Assembly (NCBI GenBank): GCA_963712745.1
Contig: CAVQJC010000015.1
Span: 138,529-202,528, forward strand
DNA from: an uncultured Chloroflexia bacterium
GTDB lineage: Bacteria > Chloroflexota > Limnocylindria > Limnocylindrales > CSP1-4
DNA length: 64,000 nucleotides
Direction of reading: 5' to 3'
Positions 21,971 through 31,145 of this stretch are shown piece after piece (within the stretch, counting starts at the first letter, position 1; each line of letters opens with the position of its first letter). The notes under the pieces are model-generated. The model had not been told where the DNA came from. It made no database searches and was given only the letters and a program-made list of their open reading frames with translations. The position numbers were made by a program, and so were the translations under genes.

Positions 21971-22534
21971 CTAGAACGCCAGTCCCCGTGGCTCCGGCCC
22001 CAGCGGCGGCACGGTCTCGTCGGCCAGGCGGAAGCCGTTGGCCTTGTAGGCCGCGTAGTCGAAGTCCTCACACTCGTCGTAGCCGACCTGGTGGTACGCG
22101 TCGAAACCCTGCCAGTCCTCGTAGCCCTCGCCAAACGAGTGGTCGAGGAACGCGTCGGCCATGGCCATCCCCAGCTTCGGCCCGATGAAGAAGGCGCCCA
22201 TGGCCAGCACGTTGCAGTGGTTCGCGGTGGCGGCGCGCTTGGCCGAAGGCTCACTCTCGCAGACGGCTGCGTGGACGTGTGGGCACTTGCTGGCGGCGAT
22301 GTGGATGCCCATGCCACTGCCGCAGAACGCGAGCCCCTTCTCGAACTCCCGCTCGGCGATCCTCGCGCCGAGCATGAAGCCGGCACGGTGGTACATCGGG
22401 GTCTCTTCGAGGATCGGCGTCAGGTCCTCGACCGTCCAGCCTCGCTGTATCAGGTGCTCCTTGACCGCCTCCTTCAGCGGGTAGCCAGCGAAGTCGGCGC
22501 TGACCACGACGTGCTTGTCCCTGGCTGTCTTCAT
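21971..22534 (-). CDS. RpiB/LacA/LacB family sugar-phosphate isomerase
   Basis: ADFAGYPLK, FCGSGMGIHIAASK, NHCNVLAMG. Confidence 0.85.
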   Translation of the reverse strand: MKTARDKHVVVSADFAGYPLKEAVKEHLIQRGWTVEDLTPILEETPMYHRAGFMLGARIAEREFEKGLAFCGSGMGIHIAASKCPHVHAAVCESEPSAKRAATANHCNVLAMGAFFIGPKLGMAMADAFLDHSFGEGYEDWQGFDAYHQVGYDECEDFDYAAYKANGFRLADETVPPLGPEPRGLAF

Positions 22535-22713
22535 GAGGACTGTCCTTTCCTGCTCCCGCATCGAACGTCCGGTGCGGCTCTCCAGCCCGATCGGCTGGGC
22601 TGCCTTCCTGCGGCCACGATGATGTCTGTGGCTCTTGCAGTCACGCATAGGCCGCGGCCGCCTCGTCGTGACCTGCTGAGCGTGGACCTAGCGTGAGTAT
22701 GGAGGTTCACGGA

Positions 22714-22749
22714 AACGACCTGTCGCTCCAGAACGACCTGTCGCTCCAG
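22714..22749. repeat. 18-bp tandem duplication
   Basis: AACGACCTGTCGCTCCAG x2. Confidence 0.85.
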
Positions 22750-22804
22750 ACTCATCGGCGGGCAGGAAGTCGATGGTCTCGGCGATAGTTGCTGCCGGGC
22801 GGCC

Positions 22805-22818
22805 GTGACCTGGGTCAC
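22805..22818. promoter_or_regulatory. Palindromic operator GTGACCTGGGTCAC (cassette 1)
   Basis: GTGAC-N4-GTCAC at an equivalent position in all four cassettes. Confidence 0.55.
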
Positions 22819-22856
22819 CTGATCGATGCCCCGGCTGGGGAGTCACATGTGTCGTA

Positions 22857-22932
22857 GCGGGAGGCCGTGAAGCCCGACTCGCGTACGTTGGCCGCCCTGA
22901 GTCGCTCCGAGCCATTGGCGAACCGGACCCGT
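22857..22932 (+). ncRNA. c-di-GMP-II-like riboswitch variant, copy 1 (slightly degenerate)
   Basis: GGGAGGCCGTGAAG...TTGGCCGCCCTG...GAGCCATTGGCGAACCGGACCC. Confidence 0.65.
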
Positions 22933-22956
22933 GTGTGAGCACCAGGGAGGTGCGAG

Positions 22957-23488
22957 ATGCGTTCGATGCGATCGATCCCGGCTGCGGTGGTCGTCCTGGT
23001 GCTGCTCGGAGCATGGGCTGCCGCAGTCGCCGCCGAGGACACGGCCGACCCGATGGCCCCGCCCTACTTCACCTACACGGCGGAGCCCGTGGGGGAGTCC
23101 TACATGCCCGGTGGGAGATGGTGCGTGACCACCGGGACATGCGGATGGCGGAGGCAACCGACCCACGGGCCTCGGGTCTTGTCACCCTCAGCGTCAACTC
23201 GAGCCTGGTCGCGCTTGACGAAGGAGGCGGTCTGACGGCGGCGTTGAGTGAACGATTGACCAACGACGGCGGAGCCTGGTCGGGCAGCGGTCGGTTCGTC
23301 ATTGCCGGGGCGGGTACGGGGGGATGACGGCGGCGATGGACAGGCTGACCGGTGAGGGCGGCTATGAGGGCCTGACCCCCATCATGGGCCAGTCCGCAGG
23401 CGCCGACGCGATGGTGAACTGGGGCGTGGTCGTCCCGAGCGACCAGATGCCGCCGATGCCTGACCCCGTGTCGCCCACCACCGAGTAG
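22957..23488 (+). pseudogene. Secreted DPRxSG-family paralogue 2 with two frameshifts
   Basis: Signal peptide plus DPMAPPYFTY in one frame, ATDPRASG...NDGGAWSG in a second, LTGEGGYEGL...PSDQMPPMPDP after the G6 run at 23318-23323. Confidence 0.7.
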
Positions 23489-23600
23489 CCCTGGGAGCGG
23501 ACCTCGATCCGACCATCGACCACGATGGGCTCAGGGCGGCTGTCGCCCGGGACTCGACCAACGTCCTCGACCCTCATCACGGTCGGCCGACGGATCGGCT

Positions 23601-24617
23601 CTAGTGGACAGGCAGGAGTGTCAGTGACTCCGAGATTGCAGCGAACGAGAATCCGGTGTCGCCCCCGCATTCGATGGCATAGAGGACGTCGCGCCCGCCC
23701 GTCCCTCCCGCGTATCGCACCTGGCCGGATACCTCGCTCGAGCGCGGTCCGTCCATCAGGTCGACCCGGTCGCTGGAGTCGGGAAGCATGAGCGTCGGCT
23801 CGAACTCGCTCCCACTCCACCTCGGTGCCCGGTCGTCACCGCTCATGGAGCCGAACCCGTAGCCGTCGAGCGATGTCGCACTTGGGGAGACCGCGAATGT
23901 GACGGAGCAGGTCCGCCGTCGGGATGGATCGAAGGCCCGCAACACCTCCCAGGCCTCGCCCGGCTGGGCGGCTGCCGGGTCGCGTTCGGGTGACAGGACC
24001 TCGACCGACCAGGCGGCCGGCAGGTCGACGGCGAAGCCCGCCCTGGCGAGCTCGACGTGCCCGCCCTCGCGGGCCGGTCCCAGCGGCGGCGGCGGCTGGA
24101 ATGGCCCGGGATCAGCCGGTCTCAAGGCCACGCTGACGACTACGAGCGGAACGAGCACGATCGCCAGGATCACGAGCATCCTCCTGCCGTCGGATGGGTC
24201 TCGTGGTCGCGCGGCCGGCCACGACGACACAAGCTCGTGTCCGACGAAGCCGAACAGGATGAGGCCGAGAGCCCAGGAGGCGATGGCCGGCACGCTCGCT
24301 GCCAGGGACTCGAGAGGCGGCAACACCGTTCGAGTGAGCACGACCAGCAGCTCGAGCGCCCACACCACCATGGTGACCAGGCCCAGGGCGCGAGCCCAGG
24401 CTTGCGCGCGCAGGATGCCGACCGCTGCCACGATGGCCGCGATGCCGGCGACGAGCGAGACCGCCGGGGCATCGAGCGGCGACGGCAGCATGGTGATGCC
24501 ATACCCGTAGCCGTACACCAGGGTCTGCGCGCCCCAGAGCCCGAGCAGGATGGCCGCCACGCGCATCCGCCGTGGCACCAATACCCAGCCTCTCCCTGCA
24601 TCCGGCGAGTGTTCCAT
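23601..24617 (-). CDS. Multi-TM protein with extracytoplasmic GFxVDLPxxW (PsbP-like?) domain
   Basis: About 5 TM helices, then GFAVDLPAAW...TCSV...YAIEC; similar to the 27341-28021 product. Confidence 0.65.
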   Translation of the reverse strand: MEHSPDAGRGWVLVPRRMRVAAILLGLWGAQTLVYGYGYGITMLPSPLDAPAVSLVAGIAAIVAAVGILRAQAWARALGLVTMVVWALELLVVLTRTVLPPLESLAASVPAIASWALGLILFGFVGHELVSSWPAARPRDPSDGRRMLVILAIVLVPLVVVSVALRPADPGPFQPPPPLGPAREGGHVELARAGFAVDLPAAWSVEVLSPERDPAAAQPGEAWEVLRAFDPSRRRTCSVTFAVSPSATSLDGYGFGSMSGDDRAPRWSGSEFEPTLMLPDSSDRVDLMDGPRSSEVSGQVRYAGGTGGRDVLYAIECGGDTGFSFAAISESLTLLPVH

Positions 24618-24935
24618 CGGACGTCTCCCATGCGGTCCTGATCGATCTCGAGAATGGGCCTAAGTCGGGCCCCGTGCATCGGTCGCAGCCTCAGACCCCG
24701 ACTCAACTGGGTGGATGTCGACGCCGCTCGGCGGGCCAGGGTCCGGGTGGATCGGCGGCGCAGCCGCGACATGTCTGCCGACGACCGTATGGAGCTCACA
24801 GCTTGTGGAAAACCGGGTCGACAGTGAAGTTGCCGTCTGGCACGCTAGCCGCCTTCAAGGTCGCCGTCGGTGCGGTCGAGGGAGCCGACGCCTTCGGTCC
24901 GACCACAGTGGGGGCAGGAGAAGAAGAGGAGCCTC

Positions 24936-25157
24936 ATGAAGCGGAAGATGCTCGCGATCGTGGCTGCCACAGCGTTCGCCACGGCCAGTCTGGCTGCACC
25001 TACGACGGCGGCCACGGAGGCGGAGATCCAGGCCTGCGTAGACGAAGCGACGACCATCCTGCTCAACAACCCGAGGTATCGCGCTTTCAGGTGGGTCATC
25101 AAGCTGGGCATCTGGGATGCGACCCTGAGGGCCAGCTGCGTGCGGACCCTGGGCTAG
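24936..25157 (+). CDS. Small secreted peptide (73 aa) with two Cys
   Basis: SD GAGGAG; Sec signal MKRKMLAIVAATAFATASLAA; strong terminator follows. Confidence 0.65.
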   Translation: MKRKMLAIVAATAFATASLAAPTTAATEAEIQACVDEATTILLNNPRYRAFRWVIKLGIWDATLRASCVRTLG

Positions 25158-25176
25158 CTGTCCGGCCGACCGTCAT

Positions 25177-25208
25177 GAAAGGCCCGTCCCGCGAGGGACG
25201 GGCCTTTC
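25177..25208 (+). terminator. Intrinsic terminator
   Basis: GAAAGGCCCGTCCC-GCGA-GGGACGGGCCTTTC followed by pyrimidines. Confidence 0.8.
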
Positions 25209-25257
25209 TCCTTCTGATGGGTGCTCGTGCAGGGATCACGCGTCCCCCCACGGGGAT

Positions 25258-25300
25258 GAGTTGGGCCCGATGGGCAAGAGTTGGGCCCGATGGGCAAGAG
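25258..25300. repeat. 20-bp tandem duplication
   Basis: GAGTTGGGCCCGATGGGCAA x2. Confidence 0.85.
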
Positions 25301-25437
25301 CTCGTACCTGAAGACATCGACGCGACACCCGGCAGCGGCACTGAGCCTGAGCGACTCTTCGTTCCTGCTGGACCGGCTCCAGATGTCTTCCCGGCGACTG
25401 GGCGGCCTGTCGGAAACGGGACCGTGAGCGGCGCGAA

Positions 25438-25695
25438 CTAGATGCCGAGGCCCACGATCCTCGCGTTCAGCAAGGCCACGTAGCCGCACGGGTCACACGT
25501 CAGTACGACAAAGCGGAAGCCACTCTCGTGCGCGATCCTCGTCCCGTTCGCGTCGGCCACGAAGCCGGGCATGAAGGACATCGAATTCTCCACCGACCAC
25601 TCGTCTTCATGACCAGCCGGGCAGCGCGCCTGGCCCATCCAATGCGCATCCAGCCAGCTCTGGATGATCGTCGTCTGCTCGTCGGTAAGAGTCAT
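25438..25695 (-). CDS. Small zinc-ribbon-like protein
   Basis: CPAGH...W...LTCDPCGYV. Confidence 0.65.
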   Translation of the reverse strand: MTLTDEQTTIIQSWLDAHWMGQARCPAGHEDEWSVENSMSFMPGFVADANGTRIAHESGFRFVVLTCDPCGYVALLNARIVGLGI

Positions 25696-25785
25696 GCTGT
25701 CCCCATGTGCGTCGAATCGGCCACGGTAGCCGCAACGGGGAGTGTATGACGGAGCCTCAGGGATAGGATGACGAAGCTGACTGGC

Positions 25786-26280
25786 CTATTCCTCGTCGGG
25801 AAAGGAACTCGTCGGACTCGGCGACGTAGAACCGGCGGCCCTGGGGCGCTTCCTACCCTCGCCGTAGCGGCGTCGGTACCACGTGCGATAGGCAAGCCAT
25901 GCGAGTCCGGCCAGCACCAGTGGCCCAAGGATGACCGAAGCGAGGAGCGGGAGGTCGGCCGCAGGACTGACCGTGTACTGGTAGATGCCCGCCAGCACAG
26001 CGACCGGGACCGCGACCAGCCGAAATGGCCGGACGTATAGCAGTTTGTGGGCCAGCGCTGTCATCGGGGGCGCTGTCCCCGTGCCGCAGTACTCGCAAAC
26101 CGCGCCGTCGACGGGCTCGCCGCAGACGCGACACTCGGCCGACGGCTCCGGTTCTTCGCGCGGGACACCCACCTCGGGTACGTCGCCTGGCGGCGGCCAC
26201 GCCGAGCCGTCCGGTCCCATCCTCGGGCGGACGGCCGCCATCCCGTACTTGCGGAGCCGGCGGCGAGTGCCTTCATCCAT
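25786..26280 (-). CDS. Zinc-ribbon protein with two TM helices
   Basis: CRVCG...CEYCG then two hydrophobic segments; start uncertain. Confidence 0.55.
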   Translation of the reverse strand: MDEGTRRRLRKYGMAAVRPRMGPDGSAWPPPGDVPEVGVPREEPEPSAECRVCGEPVDGAVCEYCGTGTAPPMTALAHKLLYVRPFRLVAVPVAVLAGIYQYTVSPAADLPLLASVILGPLVLAGLAWLAYRTWYRRRYGEGRKRPRAAGSTSPSPTSSFPDEE

Positions 26281-26356
26281 CGCGTTCCTGGCGCGAGCAT
26301 CAGGGCTCCTTCTCCCCGGGTCAAGGGCCGGACGGACCGCCTGCTCCTCGGTGGTC

Positions 26357-26399
26357 AGGACCTCCGTCACTTGACCCTCGTGATGGCCAGGAGTGTCAT
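26357..26399 (+). promoter_or_regulatory. Operator plus promoter (cassette 2)
   Basis: AGGACCTCCGTCAC-TTGACC-17 nt-TGTCAT. Confidence 0.6.
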
Positions 26400-26407
26400 A
26401 CGACCTA

Positions 26408-26482
26408 GCGGGAGGCTGTGAGGCACGGTCCGCGTACGTTGGCCGCCTGAGCCGTGCCGAGCCACTGGCGAACCCGGCCCGT
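26408..26482 (+). ncRNA. c-di-GMP-II-like riboswitch variant, copy 2
   Basis: Same core as copy 4 with compensatory stem changes (GCACGG/CCGTGC). Confidence 0.7.
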
Positions 26483-26504
26483 GCACAAGCCATGGAGGCT
26501 TGAC

Positions 26505-27050
26505 ATGCATGCGCTGCGAGTATCGACCGCCGGGACGGTCATCCTCATGCTGGTCGCCAGCCTGTCGTCGGCGGTGGGAGCACAAGAGACGGAGGCAGAC
26601 TCGATGGCCCCGGCCCACTTCACCTACACGCTCGAGTCGCTCGTGGAGCCCTCGATGGGCGACGGCGACGGATTCACCAGAGAGGTGCGAGGCGTTCTGG
26701 AGAAGGAGGAGGTCGAAGCCAGTGACCCGCGAGCATCTGGGTTGATGACCACGTACGGTCACGCGAACCTGGTGGAGGTCGATGGCGGTGGCTTCCTGGT
26801 CGGAGCCATGAACGTGGCGCTGGCCAACGATGGCGGCGCGTGGTCGGGTACGGGCACGGTGGTGCAGATAGTGGTCGAGGACGGCGGTGCCATGTGGCAA
26901 GCCGTGTTGACTGGAGAGGATGGCTACGACGGGCTGACCCTCATCATGACCCAGTACTACGACGACAACGCCCAGACGCGTCGGGGGGTCATCGTCCCGA
27001 CCGACCAGATGCCTCCGCAGCCTGACCCCGTCGAAGCGGTGGCTGAGTGA
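26505..27050 (+). CDS. Secreted DPRxSG-family protein (paralogue 3)
   Basis: SD GGAGG; signal peptide ending VGAQ; ASDPRASG, NDGGAWSG, LTGEDGYDGL. Confidence 0.85.
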   Translation: MHALRVSTAGTVILMLVASLSSAVGAQETEADSMAPAHFTYTLESLVEPSMGDGDGFTREVRGVLEKEEVEASDPRASGLMTTYGHANLVEVDGGGFLVGAMNVALANDGGAWSGTGTVVQIVVEDGGAMWQAVLTGEDGYDGLTLIMTQYYDDNAQTRRGVIVPTDQMPPQPDPVEAVAE

Positions 27051-27340
27051 CGACTCGGCACAAGGAAACTTCCCGTCTGCGCATGGCGATCGCCCCTGAC
27101 GGGGACGGTCTCCTGGCTCCCTGAGACAGAGTACGCGGGCTTCATCTACGAGGGCGCGCCGCCCGCGGGTGCTGGACACCGACGAAGTACCAACCGAGTG
27201 ATCGGCTCGTGGCGACGCGGTTGCCTGCGGCGTGACGCCAGGCGCTCAGGTCAAGGGCTGGACGGCACGCGGGATGGCTGCGCCCGCGCAGGTGTGCTCA
27301 GGCGAGGTTCACGAATCGGCATCAGAGCTCGCTCTACCGC

Positions 27341-28021
27341 CTACTCGGCGGACAGGATCCTGAAGGTGTCGGCGATGGGCTGGATGGCCCAGTTCGCGTA
27401 GAACGGCTCGCTCGGCCAGGGCACTTCAGAGCGACTGCCATCAGGCAGCCACGGGGTCAGCACGCAGGCCAGCACGTAGTCCCGGTCCCCGGCATCGAAG
27501 TGGTAGGCGACGAAGACCTCGCCGCTCGGCTGCCTGAAACTCAGGCTCACCGGCCCCCCGAGCCTCAGGGTCCCGATGCTCCACTCCGGAGCGCACTCGT
27601 ACTCGCCGGTGAGAGGGCCGATCACCCGGTCGGCCGCTTCCCATGCGTCCTCGCCCCAGGATTCGTCGGCGTCGCGCGGGAAACAGCCCCCGGCCGTGGG
27701 GGCGTCACCCGTGGCCACGTACACCGTGCAAGTGGAGCCGATGTCCGGCGGGTCGGCTGCCATGACCGGCCGCAGCCCGGTGCGCTCGATCGGTTCCGGG
27801 TCTTGGGCTGGTGTCCTGTCGACCCTCCAGCCTGTGGGCAGGTCCACCGAGAAACCCTCGGCCGACATCTCGTAGTGGCTCCGCTCGCTCTCGAGCCCGA
27901 GGAGCATCTCATCCCACCGCCCCGGGTCATTCGCGTCACGCATCCACACGAGTCCGGTAGCCAACAGGATCACGATGACGACCATGACCACGACGACGAT
28001 GAGCCAGACCTTGCGTTCCAT
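27341..28021 (-). CDS. Membrane-anchored protein with GFxVDLPxxW (PsbP-like?) domain
   Basis: N-terminal TM; GFSVDLPTGW...TCTV...YVLAC...IADTFRIL. Confidence 0.65.
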   Translation of the reverse strand: MERKVWLIVVVVMVVIVILLATGLVWMRDANDPGRWDEMLLGLESERSHYEMSAEGFSVDLPTGWRVDRTPAQDPEPIERTGLRPVMAADPPDIGSTCTVYVATGDAPTAGGCFPRDADESWGEDAWEAADRVIGPLTGEYECAPEWSIGTLRLGGPVSLSFRQPSGEVFVAYHFDAGDRDYVLACVLTPWLPDGSRSEVPWPSEPFYANWAIQPIADTFRILSAE

Positions 28022-28164
28022 CCGGTATGCCTCGACTGCGAGGAGCCCCATCCTCCTCCGCACCTCACCCAGCTGGTCAAGTGACGTATGGCTCATGCAG
28101 TGTCGTGGGCGAGGATGTCAGTCTTACGGACCGCCACCTACTGACTGCCGACGGGAGCGTTACG

Positions 28165-28779
28165 ATGCCCGGCTCGTGGTTCTACAACCTCATCTACCGC
28201 TTCGGCGCACCGTGGGAGATCGGGGTCCGCACGGAGCTCAAGGAGCTCGTCGAGAGCGGGCGCCTTCGACCAGCGCCCGGTGAAACGGCGATCGACCTCG
28301 GCTGCGGCACCGGCGCCAACACGCTCTTCCTCGCCGAGTCCGGCTGGGAGACCGTCGGTGTCGATTTCTCGCCGGTGGCGGTCGATAAGGCGAGAGCACG
28401 CGCTCGCGAGGCCGGCGGCTTCGACAACCTCCGCTTCGTGGTCGGTGATCTCTCCGGCACGACGCTGCAGGGCGCAGAGGGACCGTTCGACTTCCTGCTG
28501 GACTACGGCACGCTCGACGACCTCCAGGAGCCGCATCGCACGCGTATGGCGCAGCTCATCACGCGCATCGCAGCACCAAACGCGCGCTTCCTGATGTGGT
28601 GCTTCTACGGCCGATCCGAGGCCATGCCTCGACCGATGCGAGGACGGATATCGACGAGCATCGAGCCGGGCGAATTGGAGGAGAGGTTCGGTGCCGAGTG
28701 GGACATCGAGGAGTTGGCAGGCATGACCGGGGAGCCCAAGACCGCCCTGTTCCTCCTGACCCGCAAGGCGTCGGGCTGA
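28165..28779 (+). CDS. Class I SAM-dependent methyltransferase
   Basis: APWEIG, AIDLGCGTG, VGVDFS, FDFLLDYG. Confidence 0.9.
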   Translation: MPGSWFYNLIYRFGAPWEIGVRTELKELVESGRLRPAPGETAIDLGCGTGANTLFLAESGWETVGVDFSPVAVDKARARAREAGGFDNLRFVVGDLSGTTLQGAEGPFDFLLDYGTLDDLQEPHRTRMAQLITRIAAPNARFLMWCFYGRSEAMPRPMRGRISTSIEPGELEERFGAEWDIEELAGMTGEPKTALFLLTRKASG

Positions 28780-28898
28780 ACCAGGCGACGCTGGGCCGCG
28801 GGTGTGCTCACCCAGGCTTCAGGAAAGGCAGCTCGCCGGCCTCTGCTCCACCTCCGGAAGGAACGCGGGGGGTCTCGGCGATGGAGGTCCAGCCGGTC

Positions 28899-28990
28899 GG
28901 GACCTCGGTCACTTGCCCCGGCGCTGAACAGGAGTCCGATGGGTCGTAGCGGGAGGCCGTGACGTCCGACTCGCGTACGTTGGCCGCCTG
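28899..28990 (+). ncRNA. Operator/promoter plus 5' half of the riboswitch-like element (truncated copy 3)
   Basis: GGGACCTCGGTCAC-TTGCCC; GCGGGAGGCCGTGACG...TTGGCCGCCTG stops at 28990. Confidence 0.65.
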
Positions 28991-28995
28991 CGCAG

Positions 28996-29038
28996 GTGAC
29001 GTCCGTCACTTGACCCCGTCACCTGCGGGGAGTGTCAT
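28996..29038 (+). promoter_or_regulatory. Operator plus promoter (cassette 4)
   Basis: GTGACGTCCGTCAC-TTGACC-17 nt-TGTCAT. Confidence 0.6.
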
Positions 29039-29046
29039 ACGTGGTA

Positions 29047-29121
29047 GCGGGAGGCCGTGAAGCCCGACTCGCGTACGTTGGCCGCCTGAGTCGCTCCGAG
29101 CCACTGGCGAACCCGACCCGT
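29047..29121 (+). ncRNA. c-di-GMP-II-like riboswitch variant, copy 4
   Basis: P1 GCGGG/CCCGT, GGC/GCC, kink-turn-like UGAA/GA, CGACTC/GAGTCG, pseudoknot CGCC/GGCG and TTGG/CCGA. Confidence 0.7.
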
Positions 29122-29143
29122 GTATGAGCCAGGGAGGCGTGTC

Positions 29144-29707
29144 ATGCGTACGTTGCGACCGTTGCTCGCAGGGATGGTCAGCGTGGGGCTGGTCGCCAGC
29201 CTCTCCTTGACCGTGGTCGCGCAAGAGACAGAGACGGATCCGATGGCCCCGGCCTACTTCACGTTCACCAGGGGGATGGCCTCGAAGTCGATCGGCGGGG
29301 AGGTCGAGGCTATCGACGGCGACGGCTTTCCCGTTCTGCGTGGCCAGATGGAGGTCGATATCCCGGTCGAAGCGAGCGACCCACGAGCATCAGGCCTCTG
29401 GACCTTCGCCTTGAATGCGGACTTCGTGGAGGCCGCCGGCGGTACCGTCGGGATGGACACCAGGAGCAATCGGCTCGTCAACGACGATGGGGCGTGGAGA
29501 GGTACGGGTACGGCCATCTCCGCCTTCGTCGAGGATGGTGACTTCGCCGCGGGCCTGACCGTGCTGACCGGCGAGGGAGCCTACGCGGGCCTGAGCCTCA
29601 TCTTCAGCCAGACCTATGAGGATGGTGGGGAGTCGTACTGGGGCATCATCCTCCCGAGCGACAAGGTCCCACCGTTCCCGGACCCCACGGCACCATCAGC
29701 CGAATAG
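29144..29707 (+). CDS. Secreted DPRxSG-family protein (paralogue 4)
   Basis: SD GGGAGG; signal peptide ending VVAQ; ASDPRASG, NDDGAWRG, LTGEGAYAGL. Confidence 0.85.
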   Translation: MRTLRPLLAGMVSVGLVASLSLTVVAQETETDPMAPAYFTFTRGMASKSIGGEVEAIDGDGFPVLRGQMEVDIPVEASDPRASGLWTFALNADFVEAAGGTVGMDTRSNRLVNDDGAWRGTGTAISAFVEDGDFAAGLTVLTGEGAYAGLSLIFSQTYEDGGESYWGIILPSDKVPPFPDPTAPSAE

Positions 29708-29870
29708 CCACCACACGCGAAGGGGGAATGGCATGAGTGCGTTGCGCTCGTCCTTCGTTGGCATCGTCGTCGAAGGGGCGATGCCCCCGATGCCCGAGCC
29801 GCTGGAGCCAACCGCCCCTTAGCCGTTTCGCGCCGCCTCGGCTGCTTGCGGCGTCGGAGCGGGTGTGCTC

Positions 29871-31145
29871 CTACGCGGGGAACATCTCCTCGAGCTCGGC
29901 GCGGAGGCCGTCGCGGACAGCCTTGTGCGAGAAGTGGCGCAGGCCGGCGGCGTAGTTGACCTCGGCCCGCTCGGCGATGCTGGCCGGGTCGTCGAGCAGA
30001 GCACGCGTCTCCTCGACCACGGCCTCGGTCACGAAGCCGTTCATCTCGACGTTGCGGAACCCCTTGGGCCGGATGTCCAGGTCGTAGACCGGGTAGCGGT
30101 TCACGAAGACTGGCCTGCGATGGTAGACAGCCTCCAGATAGGCATTGCCGAAGCCCTCGATGAGCGAGGGATAGGCCACGAGGTCGCAGGCGTCGTACAT
30201 GTCGCCCAGCGCATAGATCGTCCGTCCGTCCGCACCCCGACCGCGCCCGATGTCGGCCACCCGGTCGGCCGCCCACAGCAGGTCCACGTCGAGCAGCCGG
30301 GCGAACTCCCGCAGGCGTGCCTCGTACTCCATGCCCTCGTCGCCGCTGGCGTGGGAGATGACCAGCCGAGCCGGCCGACCCAGGCGCGCAACCAGCTCGA
30401 TGGCGTGCTCGAGCCCCTTGCGAGGGACCACGCGCACGGGCGCCAGCACGAAGAGCTCATCGTCGGCCAGCCCCAGGTCTGCGCGCAGGTCGGCAGTGAC
30501 CTCGTCGGGCCGTATCGGCGGGTCCTCGAAATCCATGACGTTGGGAATCACTCGGGCGCTGCGTCCCAGGCGTCGGGCGATCTGCTCACGCTGCGTGGTG
30601 TTGATGCAGGCGTGGCGCACGTTCGGCAACGCCGGCGGGAACGCCGCACTGATGATGTCGTGGACGCTGTTGACCAGGAAGCGCTGCCGCTCCCAGGGCA
30701 GATCGTGGTGATGCGCGAGCACCGCCATGCCCGACTCGGCCGCCAGCTGCGTGATGGCCAGCCCCAGCGGCAAGTGCATGGGGATGGTCAGGGCGTTCTC
30801 CGGGATGAGCAGGTCAAGCTCGAGATCCCGCACGAACGAGTGCAGGGCCGACTTCAGATGGGCCGTGAGCTCGTCGATCTGGCGGGAGACCGACTCGGGC
30901 CGCCCAGATGACGCATCGCCGAAGACGGCATCGTTGATGGCCGCAACGTCGGGATGGCCGAAGAACGCTTCGGGCACCTCGCGGCTCTTCTCCGGCGGCC
31001 GGTCGACGATGCCTGCGAAGTAGCAGACGTCGTGGCCCATCGCCCGCAGCTCGACAGCCCACTTCTCCGACTCCAGGGAAACGCCGTCGGTCCCCGCGAA
31101 GCGGGTGCCCACGAAACCGATGCGCAGGGGTCGCGTCTCAGCCAT
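29871..31145 (-). CDS. GT4 glycosyltransferase, mannosylglucosylglycerate-synthase-like
   Basis: TRFAGTDGVSLE..KW, HHHD..WER, RVVPRKGLEHAI, YPSLIEGFGNA. Confidence 0.8.
   Translation of the reverse strand: MAETRPLRIGFVGTRFAGTDGVSLESEKWAVELRAMGHDVCYFAGIVDRPPEKSREVPEAFFGHPDVAAINDAVFGDASSGRPESVSRQIDELTAHLKSALHSFVRDLELDLLIPENALTIPMHLPLGLAITQLAAESGMAVLAHHHDLPWERQRFLVNSVHDIISAAFPPALPNVRHACINTTQREQIARRLGRSARVIPNVMDFEDPPIRPDEVTADLRADLGLADDELFVLAPVRVVPRKGLEHAIELVARLGRPARLVISHASGDEGMEYEARLREFARLLDVDLLWAADRVADIGRGRGADGRTIYALGDMYDACDLVAYPSLIEGFGNAYLEAVYHRRPVFVNRYPVYDLDIRPKGFRNVEMNGFVTEAVVEETRALLDDPASIAERAEVNYAAGLRHFSHKAVRDGLRAELEEMFPA

What the first reader, a model, noticed from the sequence alone, without database searches (positions are those of the whole stretch)
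22857..29121. Repeated c-di-GMP-II-fold riboswitch with an apparent A-C-G binding-pocket variant
Seen: a ~75-nt element occurs at 22857-22932, 26408-26482 and 29047-29121, plus a 5' half at 28949-28990. Each full copy ends about 10-15 nt before the SD of a secreted paralogue. It can form P1 GCGGG/CCCGT, GGC/GCC, a kink-turn-like UGA/GA, a variable stem with compensatory changes between copies (CGACTC/GAGTCG vs GCACGG/CCGTGC; A-U to G-C), and a pseudoknot CGCC/GGCG plus TTGG/CCGA. Established: this is the order of elements in the c-di-GMP-II riboswitch, whose 3' end reads roughly AGUGC-AA-CC-G-ACC. The A-A-G positions contact the ligand, and G-A-G and G-C-G variants have been described. Inference: by manual alignment all three full copies read GGCGA-AC-C(C/G)-G, i.e. 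A-C-G, and the conserved AGU is ACU/AUU. This could be a further variant with altered affinity or a different ligand, controlling translation of an uncharacterised secreted family.
Basis: partly seen in the sequence, partly recalled or inferred. Interest (0 to 1): 0.85.

Follow-up and report, generated by a model that had tools for sequence, protein, structure and literature searches.

The report
Fourth pocket type of c-di-GMP-II riboswitch
Three copies of a known bacterial RNA sensor fold sit in front of genes for small secreted proteins, and their ligand pocket reads A-C-G, a natural combination that has no family of its own and is very common in one group of uncultured Chloroflexota.

Summary
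Rfam covariance models hit all three full copies: 51.0, 47.4/43.9 and 37.6 bits. The coordinates given are exactly P1 start to P1 end. The 5' half copy at 28949-28990 is real.

The 7 nt between the pseudoknot strand GGCG and the P1 strand CCCG align without gaps. Positions 69/70/73 read A-C-G. This is neither the parent A-A-G nor the named G-A-G and G-C-G variants.

The window belongs to a 4.2 Mb Limnocylindria-like (Chloroflexota) MAG.
- It has 51 matches genome-wide, 32 over the Rfam cut-off; 28 of those 32 read ACG.
- Of 173 distinct aptamers collected from this class, 76 are ACG, 67 GAG, 13 AAG and 9 GCG.
- Several types coexist in single genomes and precede orthologous genes.

Covariation supports P1 and P3.

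The aptamers end about 22 nt before start codons, mostly of signal-peptide proteins, with no terminator in between.

Best reading: translational riboswitches of a large secreted-protein regulon, probably sensing c-di-GMP. A69 and G73 are kept, the genome has 8 GGDEF and 4-5 EAL matches, and GGDEF genes and aptamers are distributed alike. C70 replaces the intercalating adenine. The ligand and the ON/OFF sense are inferred, not shown.

The parts
22857..22932 (+). Copy 1 aptamer, P1 5' to P1 3'. It is the most degenerate copy (C62U, C72G). Pocket: A69=22922, C70=23, G73=22926.
   Evidence: cmscan RF03169 37.6 bits, under the gathering score of 40, E=1.4e-4; RF03170 38.8 bits (C15:161380-161466); sequence read.
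22957..23488 (+). Paralogue of the secreted family after copy 1, readable only across three frames (two frame changes). It is either a pseudogene or carries assembly indels.
   Evidence: tblastn of the two intact paralogues: frame +2 from 22957, frame +1 from about 23121, frame +3 from about 23318 to 23485.
26371..26399 (+). Promoter-like TTGACC-17 nt-TGTCAT, ending 8 nt before P1 of copy 2. The same arrangement lies at 29010-29038 before copy 3. Inferred only.
   Evidence: Sequence. The CWCTTGAMC motif lies 25-29 nt before 8 aptamer hits in the genome. The consensus promoter scan found nothing here.
26408..26482 (+). Copy 2 aptamer. P1 26408-26412 / 26478-26482. A 26413. P2 26414-26416 / 26461-26463. 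P3 26423-26430 / 26450-26457. Pseudoknot CGCC 26444-26447 with GGCG 26467-26470. Ceiling A 26464. Pocket A69=26472, C70=26473, G73=26476.
   Evidence: cmscan RF03170 51.0 bits, over the gathering score of 47.9; parent model RF01786 34.9 bits, under its gathering score of 53.5; pair counts on alignment A1.
26494..27050 (+). SD GGAGG (26494-26498) and CDS 26505-27050. The product is 181 aa with a signal-peptide-like N-terminus and a predicted 8-stranded beta-barrel. No Pfam family.
   Evidence: 42 relatives, all unnamed or 'hypothetical'; pLDDT 86.9; best Foldseek match 2ooj DUF3224, E=3.4e-3. Contigs of four RNA libraries cover 26452-27013 (weak evidence).
28949..28990 (+). 5' half copy (P1 5', P2 5', P3 5', loop to GGCCGCCUG). 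It breaks off where the promoter-like sequence of copy 3 begins, so it is a remnant of cassette duplication.
   Evidence: Sequence; no Rfam match of its own.
29047..29121 (+). Copy 3 aptamer. P1 29047-29051 / 29117-29121. Pocket A69=29111, C70=29112, G73=29115.
   Evidence: cmscan RF03169 43.9 bits, over the gathering score of 40; RF03170 47.4 bits, under 47.9; RF01786 34.2 bits.
29132..29707 (+). SD GGGAGG (29132-29137) and CDS 29144-29707. The product is 187 aa, a paralogue of the protein after copy 2 (50% identity in alignment A2).

Best explanation
These are 5'-leader riboswitch aptamers of the c-di-GMP-II fold (Rfam clan CL00127). Each is transcribed from its own promoter a few nucleotides upstream and ends about 22 nt before the start codon of the gene it controls.

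The ligand pocket carries A69-C70-G73. The two bases that read the ligand's two nucleobases in the solved parent (A69 by its sugar edge, G73) are kept. The adenine that intercalates between the ligand's bases (A70) is a cytosine.

The most likely ligand is therefore still c-di-GMP, bound with changed affinity or kinetics.

Control is translational. There is no terminator, and the C-rich P1 3' strand and the nucleotides after it can pair with the G-rich SD or the start codon. Ligand-stabilised P1 would then free the initiation region (ON switch).

The three window copies belong to a regulon of about 45-50 such switches in this genome. It consists mostly of exported proteins and was spread by duplication of promoter-aptamer(-gene) cassettes.

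Shown: fold, pocket letters, copy number, gene context, distribution. Inferred: ligand, affinity change, ON direction, promoter.
For: Fold:
- cmscan gives 51.0, 47.4/43.9 and 37.6 bits for the three copies.
- On 150 aptamers, 87.1% of cells are paired, against at most 41.9% when partners are slid.
- The covariation score is 0.150 against 0.094 in shuffles (0 of 500 reach it).
- P3 has changes on both sides in 8 of 8 pairs, P1 in 2 of 5. P2 and the pseudoknot are nearly invariant and 99.7-99.8% paired.

Pocket:
- The N7 stretch between two helices is ungapped.
- Among the 32 genome hits over the cut-off, positions 69-73 are kept in 29-31 of 32, while flanking position 68 is A 21/G 11 and position 74 is G 19/A 10/C 2/T 1.
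- The types among these 32 are 28 ACG, 2 AAG, 1 GCA and 1 mis-parsed that reads GCG by eye.

Roles of A69, A70 and G73: PMC13715770, whole text.

c-di-GMP machinery:
- The genome has 8 GGDEF matches (7 with an intact GG[D/E]EF), 5 EAL-domain matches (two lie side by side in one gene region, so 4-5 genes) and 1 DAC.
- No SMODS CD-NTase and no c-di-GMP-I riboswitch were found (the genome is 84.5% complete).
- GGDEF is present in 24 of 24 genomes of the genus and 0 of 16 of the sister family. The aptamer is present in 23 of 24 and 0 of 16.

Translational context:
- An SD-like motif and a start codon lie within 25 nt in 33 of 43 genome hits of 38 bits or more, and in 123 of 143 downstream ORFs class-wide.
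- No terminator-like site lies between aptamer and ORF in the window.
- 90 of 143 products have a signal-peptide-like N-terminus by a crude rule. This fits the cell-surface targets usual for c-di-GMP (recalled).

ON sense:
- Folded without the P1 5' strand, 8 of 31 platforms pair the SD with positions 68-79.
- By my reading of the minimum-free-energy structures, about 15 more pair the start codon with GCGCAUG-type sequence that overlaps the last two P1 nucleotides. In the methyltransferase genes the start codon pairs with CCCGU itself.
Against: No binding or reporter data exist.

On the ligand:
- The intercalating purine is lost. The named G69 variants on the same scaffold were set apart (recalled: Weinberg et al. 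2017, not readable here) because a different ligand was suspected.
- ACG coexists with GAG, GCG or AAG in single genomes, which could mean different ligands.
- The first P2 pair is G-C in 150 of 150 sequences, where 3Q3Z has A-U. In an engineered relative that change shifted cGAMP isomer preference.
- The matching distribution with GGDEF is in effect one phylogenetic contrast, confounded with genome reduction (1.1 Mb genomes).

On the expression platform:
- Mean SD accessibility is 0.54 unconstrained against 0.62 with the aptamer enforced (n=31).
- Native energies do not differ from shuffles of the anti-SD stretch.
- In copies 2 and 3 a local hairpin around the SD persists in both states.

On the promoter: the consensus scan found none.
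Confidence: 0.55

Rival explanations
1. Same fold and same translational role, but the ACG pocket senses a different small molecule. Candidates are another cyclic dinucleotide (3'3'-cGAMP, c-di-AMP), linear pGpG, or an unknown nucleotide signal. The four pocket types AA/AC/GA/GC at positions 69/70 would then be a set of specificity classes.
For: - Three pocket types are found in single genomes: G045 (GCG, GAG, ACG) and G099 (GCG, GAG, ACG). G000 has ACG with 2 AAG.
- Positions 69 and 70 are held fixed within each type while neighbouring positions 68 and 74 drift.
- The G-C first pair of P2 replaces A-U.
- The genus keeps a GGDEF paralogue with Asn where other GGDEFs have the base-reading Asp. 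It is seen in G000 and in 18 of 20 fetched loci from 18 other genomes. That this residue sets the substrate base is recalled, not tested.
Against: - A69 and G73, the two base-reading nucleotides, are unchanged.
- Orthologous genes are preceded by ACG in some genomes and by GAG or GCG in others: SRPBCC at 60% identity, SAM methyltransferase at 63%, an unnamed family at 78%. A ligand change would have to move a whole regulon.
- Genomes G045 and G099 have ACG aptamers but only Asp among the GGDEFs that could be parsed (7 of 10 and 6 of 13).
- No CD-NTase was found in G000.
Confidence: 0.3
2. The aptamer-like element no longer senses anything. It is a structured leader that travels with a duplicating promoter cassette, kept for mRNA stability or constitutive translation.
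For: - The copy number is high (51 matches).
- There are truncated and degenerate copies: the half copy at 28949-28990, and copy 1 in front of a gene read in three frames.
- Folding gave no clear switching platform.
Against: - The unpaired pocket and junction nucleotides are conserved across copies whose P3 helices have diverged with compensation.
- The pseudoknot strands are 99.7% complementary.
- The element is conserved in two families of the class (f1 24 of 44, f4 22 of 50).
- A stability element would not need positions 69-73 to be fixed.
Confidence: 0.08
3. Ordinary c-di-GMP-II (A-A-G) riboswitches whose pocket was misread through misalignment.
For: None beyond the fact that the parent model also matches weakly (34.2-34.9 bits).
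Against: - The 7-nt stretch between GGCG and CCCG has the same length in all four types, so no other register is possible without breaking a helix.
- True AAG copies exist on the same scaffold for comparison (GGCGAAACCG).
Confidence: 0.02

Closest known systems
c-di-GMP-II riboswitch (Rfam RF01786; structure 3Q3Z)
   Same: Same order of elements: P1, unpaired A, P2, kink-turn-like UGA...GA, P3, and a loop-to-3' pseudoknot. Same ceiling adenine, same A69 and G73. The host has GGDEF and EAL enzymes.
   Different: C70 instead of the intercalating A70. The first P2 pair is G-C rather than A-U. All scores are under the gathering score of 53.5 (best in the genome 49.5; window copies 34.9 and 34.2). 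The host is Chloroflexota and control is translational.
c-di-GMP-II-GCG variant (Rfam RF03170)
   Same: Best-scoring model for copy 2 and for most genome copies (up to 68.9 bits). Shares C70 and G73 and nearly the whole scaffold. True GCG copies occur in the same class and even the same genomes.
   Different: A69 instead of the G69 that defines the variant.
c-di-GMP-II-GAG variant (Rfam RF03169)
   Same: Same scaffold and lineage. It is the commonest type elsewhere in the class (67 of 173) and precedes orthologues of the same genes.
   Different: Both variable pocket letters differ (A69 C70 against G69 A70). The model is not pocket-specific: AAG copies score 51-63 bits with it.
GEMM-I c-di-GMP / 3'3'-cGAMP riboswitches of Geobacter (recalled; cited in PMC13715770 and PMC5473149)
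   Same: Many copies per genome, with pocket point changes on one scaffold inside one genome.
   Different: A different fold. There the change of ligand was shown by experiment. Here nothing has been tested.

Membership tests
c-di-GMP-II fold / Rfam clan CL00127 | Significant covariance-model match over the full length | tested here: met
   Full-length matches (model positions 1-85/86) for all three copies, E from 3.5e-7 to 1.4e-4. Two of the three are over a gathering score.
c-di-GMP-II fold / Rfam clan CL00127 | P1, P2 and P3 helices supported by covariation; pseudoknot between the P3 loop and the 3' strand | tested here: met
   P3 8 of 8 and P1 2 of 5 pairs have changes on both sides. P2 and the pseudoknot are 99.7-99.8% paired but invariant, so they are consistent with pairing and not proven by covariation.
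c-di-GMP-II fold / Rfam clan CL00127 | Binds a ligand and switches expression | not testable with these tools
   No binding or reporter data. The position in front of an SD and start codon is the only functional evidence.
c-di-GMP-II parent (RF01786) | Score at or above the gathering score of 53.5 bits | tested here: not met
   0 of 43 matches in the genome reach it. The best is 49.5; the window copies score 34.9 and 34.2.
c-di-GMP-II parent (RF01786) | Pocket A69-A70-G73 | tested here: not met
   C at position 70 in all three window copies and in 29 of the 32 genome hits over the cut-off.
c-di-GMP-II-GCG (RF03170) | Score at or above the gathering score of 47.9 bits | tested here: inconclusive
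   Copy 2 scores 51.0 (met), copy 3 scores 47.4 (0.5 short) and copy 1 scores 38.8 (not met).
c-di-GMP-II-GCG (RF03170) | Pocket G69-C70-G73 | tested here: not met
   A at position 69 in all three copies.
c-di-GMP-II-GAG (RF03169) | Pocket G69-A70-G73 | tested here: not met
   A69 and C70 in all three copies. Copy 3 nevertheless passes this model's gathering score (43.9 against 40), as do AAG copies. The score therefore does not test the pocket.

The most novel reading that the evidence does not exclude
A69/G69 crossed with A70/C70 forms a natural two-by-two set of pockets on one scaffold. All four are alive in Limnocylindria, up to three per genome. They discriminate between different nucleotide signals. 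ACG, the unnamed fourth member, senses something other than c-di-GMP, possibly the product of the genus-specific GGDEF paralogue that carries Asn at the base-reading position.
Probability: 0.2. Interest if true: 0.85.

Novelty: new variant of a known kind. Interest (0 to 1): 0.6.

Why it matters
The G-A-G and G-C-G variants of c-di-GMP-II have Rfam families. In the papers I could search, nothing assigns them a ligand.

A-C-G is the missing single-step intermediate between the parent and G-C-G. It is not rare: 76 of the 173 aptamers collected here, and about 90% of the copies in this genome.

Rfam-based annotation will label these as 'GCG' or 'GAG' because the models score the scaffold, not the pocket.

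The lineage offers all four pockets in front of orthologous genes, sometimes within one genome. That is a ready-made comparison for asking what positions 69 and 70 do to ligand choice and affinity.

It also points to one of the larger single-fold riboswitch regulons seen in one genome (51 matches in 4.2 Mb). That regulon controls mostly exported proteins of unknown function in an uncultured, widespread sediment and soil group.

Tried and rejected
Literature and earlier notes:
- Papers not held: Weinberg et al. 2017, Smith et al. 2011, Lee et al. 2010 and Bose et al. 2016. What the first description said about A-C-G is therefore unknown to me. Its supplements may list it.

Structure proposals:
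Rejected.
- An extension of the pseudoknot by pair 41-74 (C with position 68) is 28% paired. Rejected as a general feature.

Expression platform and promoter:
- ViennaRNA gave no uniform switch, and shuffles of the anti-SD stretch fold as well as the native sequence. The ON sense stays an inference.
- The sigma-70 consensus scan found 0 sites.

Link between pocket type and a variant GGDEF:
- The Asn paralogue is conserved in the genus.
- Genomes G045 and G099 have ACG aptamers with only Asp among the parsed GGDEFs. G160 (GCG+GAG) has one Thr form.
- No pattern emerged, and the sample is small and incompletely parsed.

Other:
- Foldseek against the PDB for the secreted protein gave nothing at E<=0.001.
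- RNA-library contigs gave no cover over copies 1 and 3 and no usable transcript ends. The cover of copy 2's gene may be DNA carry-over.
- My first script for the GGDEF residue picked wrong reading frames and was redone.
- One regex mis-registered a GCG copy as 'CGC'.


Full report
**Observation**

- 26402-26488 to RF03170 (c-di-GMP-II-GCG): 51.0 bits, gathering score 47.9.
- 29041-29127 to RF03169 (c-di-GMP-II-GAG): 43.9 bits, gathering score 40.

A permissive search of 22000-30000 adds 22852-22938 to RF03169 at 37.6 bits, under the gathering score, E=1.4e-4. It also shows that copy 3 scores 47.4 with RF03170.

The stretch 28949-28990 repeats the 5' half of the aptamer up to the loop GGCCGCCUG. 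It then runs into the promoter-like sequence of copy 3.

**The pocket**

PMC13715770 (whole text read) states the following for the solved parent, 3Q3Z:
- The upper guanine of c-di-GMP is read by the sugar edge of A69.
- The lower guanine is read by G73 and the ribose of A70.
- A third adenine intercalates between the two bases.
- Another adenine forms the ceiling.
- The first P2 pair, A14-U60, lies against the ligand backbone.

If the invariant A after P2 is that ceiling adenine (A61), the model consensus cAgUGGCGAGCCCG numbers as G69, C70, G73. The GAG model then gives G69, A70, G73, which fits the family names. This numbering is my inference.

All three window copies read UGGCG-A-A-C-C-C/G-G, that is A69, C70, G73. 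The alignment is ungapped with top posterior probability. The 7 nt between the pseudoknot strand GGCG and the P1 strand CCCG have the same length in every pocket type. No other register is open.

**Structure**

I collected 173 distinct aptamers from the loci fetched, using a regular expression that fixes parts of P2, the junction and the pseudoknot 3' strand but neither P1 nor P3. I aligned 147 of them with the three window copies.

For P1, P2, P3 and the pseudoknot plus two test helices:
- 87.1% of cells pair, against 31.6-41.9% when the partners are slid.
- The covariation score is 0.150 against 0.094 in shuffles (0 of 500 reach it).
- P3 has changes on both sides in 8 of 8 pairs, P1 in 2 of 5.
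- P2 and the pseudoknot are almost invariant.

**Scale**

The window lies in a 4.2 Mb, 20-contig MAG that is 84.5% complete.
- RF03170 finds 51 matches at E<=1, of which 32 are over the cut-off.
- The parent model RF01786 finds 43 matches, none over its cut-off.
- Of the 32, 28 read ACG, 2 AAG and 1 GCA. One that my regex mis-parsed reads GCG by eye.
- Positions 69-73 are kept in 29-31 of 32, while position 68 is A 21/G 11 and position 74 is G 19/A 10/C 2/T 1.

Nearly all come from MAGs titled Chloroflexota, Chloroflexia or Candidatus Limnocylindria, including CSP1-4. The window's own taxon is inferred from this.

In the same genus, 23 of 24 other genomes have the element, at 1-31 copies under filters where G000 shows 47. 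In the sister family of about 1.1 Mb genomes, 0 of 16 have it.

In an even draw of the class, 47 of 151 genomes have it: family f1 24 of 44, f4 22 of 50, f3 0 of 49. Only 27 candidates per genome were scored, so copy numbers are capped there. Two of the genomes, G132 and G158, are unpublished and have one match each.

**Pocket types**

Among the 173 aptamers, ACG is 76, GAG 67, AAG 13, GCG 9 and other 8. All four combinations of A/G at position 69 and A/C at position 70 therefore exist on this one scaffold.

The genus of the window is almost purely ACG: 21 ACG and 1 ACA among the relatives' loci.

Types also coexist elsewhere. Of 40 fetched aptamers, 33 could be parsed:
- G045 gave GCG 2, GAG 2, ACG 1. 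Two unparsed ones read GCG and GAG by eye.
- G099 gave GCG 1, GAG 1, ACG 2.
- G160 gave GCG 1, GAG 1.
- ACG also occurs in family f4.

The Rfam variant models do not separate the types. Four AAG copies score 51.4-63.2 bits with the GAG model.

**Genes**

In G000 an SD-like motif and a start codon lie within 25 nt of 33 of the 43 hits of 38 bits or more. Class-wide the figure is 123 of 143 downstream ORFs.

The products include:
- a secreted family without a Pfam match (10 paralogues in G000, among them the three in the window);
- five SAM methyltransferases;
- three secreted cupin-like proteins;
- two SRPBCC proteins;
- a rhodanese, a BD-FAE esterase, a GNAT, a 4Fe-4S protein and a deaminase.

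By a crude rule, 90 of 143 products have a signal-peptide-like N-terminus.

Across genomes the same families are preceded by different pocket types:
- SRPBCC: 5 ACG, 4 GAG, 1 GCG; best cross-type identity 60.5%.
- Methyltransferase: 8 ACG, 2 GAG; 62.6%.
- An unnamed family: 2 ACG, 2 GAG; 77.5%.

The window family has 42 relatives, all unnamed or called hypothetical. Its AlphaFold2 model is an 8-stranded barrel behind a signal helix (pLDDT 86.9). Foldseek finds only weak resemblance to DUF3224 and cyclase-like barrels (best E=3.4e-3).

The gene after copy 1 is readable only across three frames. Several other downstream ORFs in this assembly also look shifted, so assembly indels are as likely as decay.

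**Mechanism**

No terminator-like site lies between aptamer and ORF, and the consensus promoter scan found nothing.

A shared TTGACC-17-TGTCAT arrangement ends 8 nt before P1 of copies 2 and 3. Another upstream class, GMGAGAATC, ends 1-2 nt before the aptamer hit in 14 of its 26 genome-wide occurrences. I infer a promoter directly upstream.

Folding gives no uniform platform. Mean SD accessibility is 0.54 unconstrained and 0.62 with the aptamer enforced (n=31).

With the P1 5' strand left out, the SD pairs with positions 68-79 in 8 of 31 platforms. In many others the start codon pairs with sequence that overlaps the end of the P1 3' strand. Shuffled controls fold as well as the native sequence.

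An ON switch, in which P1 formation frees the initiation region, is my preferred reading, at about 55%.

**Ligand**

- The genome has 8 GGDEF matches, 5 EAL-domain matches (4-5 genes) and 1 DAC.
- No SMODS enzyme and no c-di-GMP-I riboswitch were found.
- GGDEF genes are present in 24 of 24 genomes of the genus and 0 of 16 of the sister family. The aptamer follows the same pattern. This is one contrast, confounded with genome size.
- A69 and G73 are kept.

I therefore favour c-di-GMP, with C70 tuning affinity. Another dinucleotide is the main rival.

One lead for the rival is a GGDEF paralogue with Asn in GHEAGN, where six of the seven other GGDEFs of G000 have GH..GD (the seventh is degenerate). 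It is conserved in 18 further genomes of the genus. It did not track pocket type in the few other genomes examined.

**Expression**

Contigs of four metatranscriptome libraries match 26452-27013 with 0-1 differences. One contig bridges the aptamer's 3' half and the coding region. DNA carry-over cannot be excluded.

**Literature**

In the searchable library no paper assigns a ligand to the GAG or GCG variants, mentions A-C-G, or links c-di-GMP-II to Chloroflexi (searches; passages read). The 2017 paper that named the variants could not be read.

**Verdict**

This is a real member of the c-di-GMP-II fold. Its pocket matches none of the three Rfam families of the clan. It is abundant in one bacterial class and massively expanded in this genome.

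Noticed in passing
G000 contig C17:336188-336646 (- strand), outside the window; loci L187-L204: A GGDEF paralogue (649-aa ORF, active site RYGGDEF) carries Asn in the motif GHEAGN. Six of the seven other GGDEFs of the genome have Asp there (GH..GD); the seventh is degenerate. The same Asn is present in 18 of 20 loci fetched from 18 other genomes of the genus. That this residue reads the substrate base is recalled, not tested.
   Followed up: partly
G000 genome-wide; upstream of window copies at 26360-26399 and 29000-29038: There are two upstream cassette types before the aptamers. (1) GACCTCCGYCWCTTGAMC-N17-CATAC, seen in the window copies; its GACCTBBGYCWC part occurs 184 times in the genome. 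(2) TGGACGCCCGCGAGAGAATC; 14 of the 26 genome-wide GMGAGAATC sites end 1-2 nt before an aptamer hit. Type 2 is often preceded by a conserved CCCGCTATTCATGGCGATTC about 45 nt upstream, which may be a regulator site.
   Followed up: partly
window 22957-23488: The paralogue after copy 1 needs three reading frames. Several other riboswitch-linked ORFs in the assembly also look frame-shifted, which suggests indel errors in the assembly as much as pseudogenes.
   Followed up: partly
window 25173-25265: A strong GC-rich hairpin, AAAGGCCCGUCCC...GGGACGGGCCUUU, gives weak Rfam matches (Thr_leader 24.4 bits; CC2171; anti-hemB), all far under their gathering scores. Contigs of two RNA libraries match only the 33 nt at 25177-25209 and then run on into unlike sequence, so the hairpin also occurs elsewhere. 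It is probably a bidirectional terminator or a repeated hairpin.
   Followed up: no
window 28027-28779: A SAM methyltransferase gene (Methyltransf_25, TPMT-like) ends about 170 nt before the half copy. It belongs to a different subfamily from the riboswitch-controlled methyltransferases elsewhere in the genome.
   Followed up: no
L116, L133, L134 (MAGs titled Thermaceae); control genome Deinococcus radiodurans: GAG-type aptamers with C at position 68 precede DUF4388 genes in Thermaceae MAGs. RF03170 also matches over its cut-off in the Deinococcus radiodurans control. The variant scaffold is therefore not confined to Chloroflexota.
   Followed up: no
G000 C7:63326-75337, C5:76792-112590, C17:158784-173667: The aptamers are clustered. 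There are eight hits within 12 kb of contig C7 and runs on C5 and C17, some in front of duplicated genes (identical 441-aa and 299-aa products on two contigs). Some of this may be uncollapsed assembly duplication.
   Followed up: no
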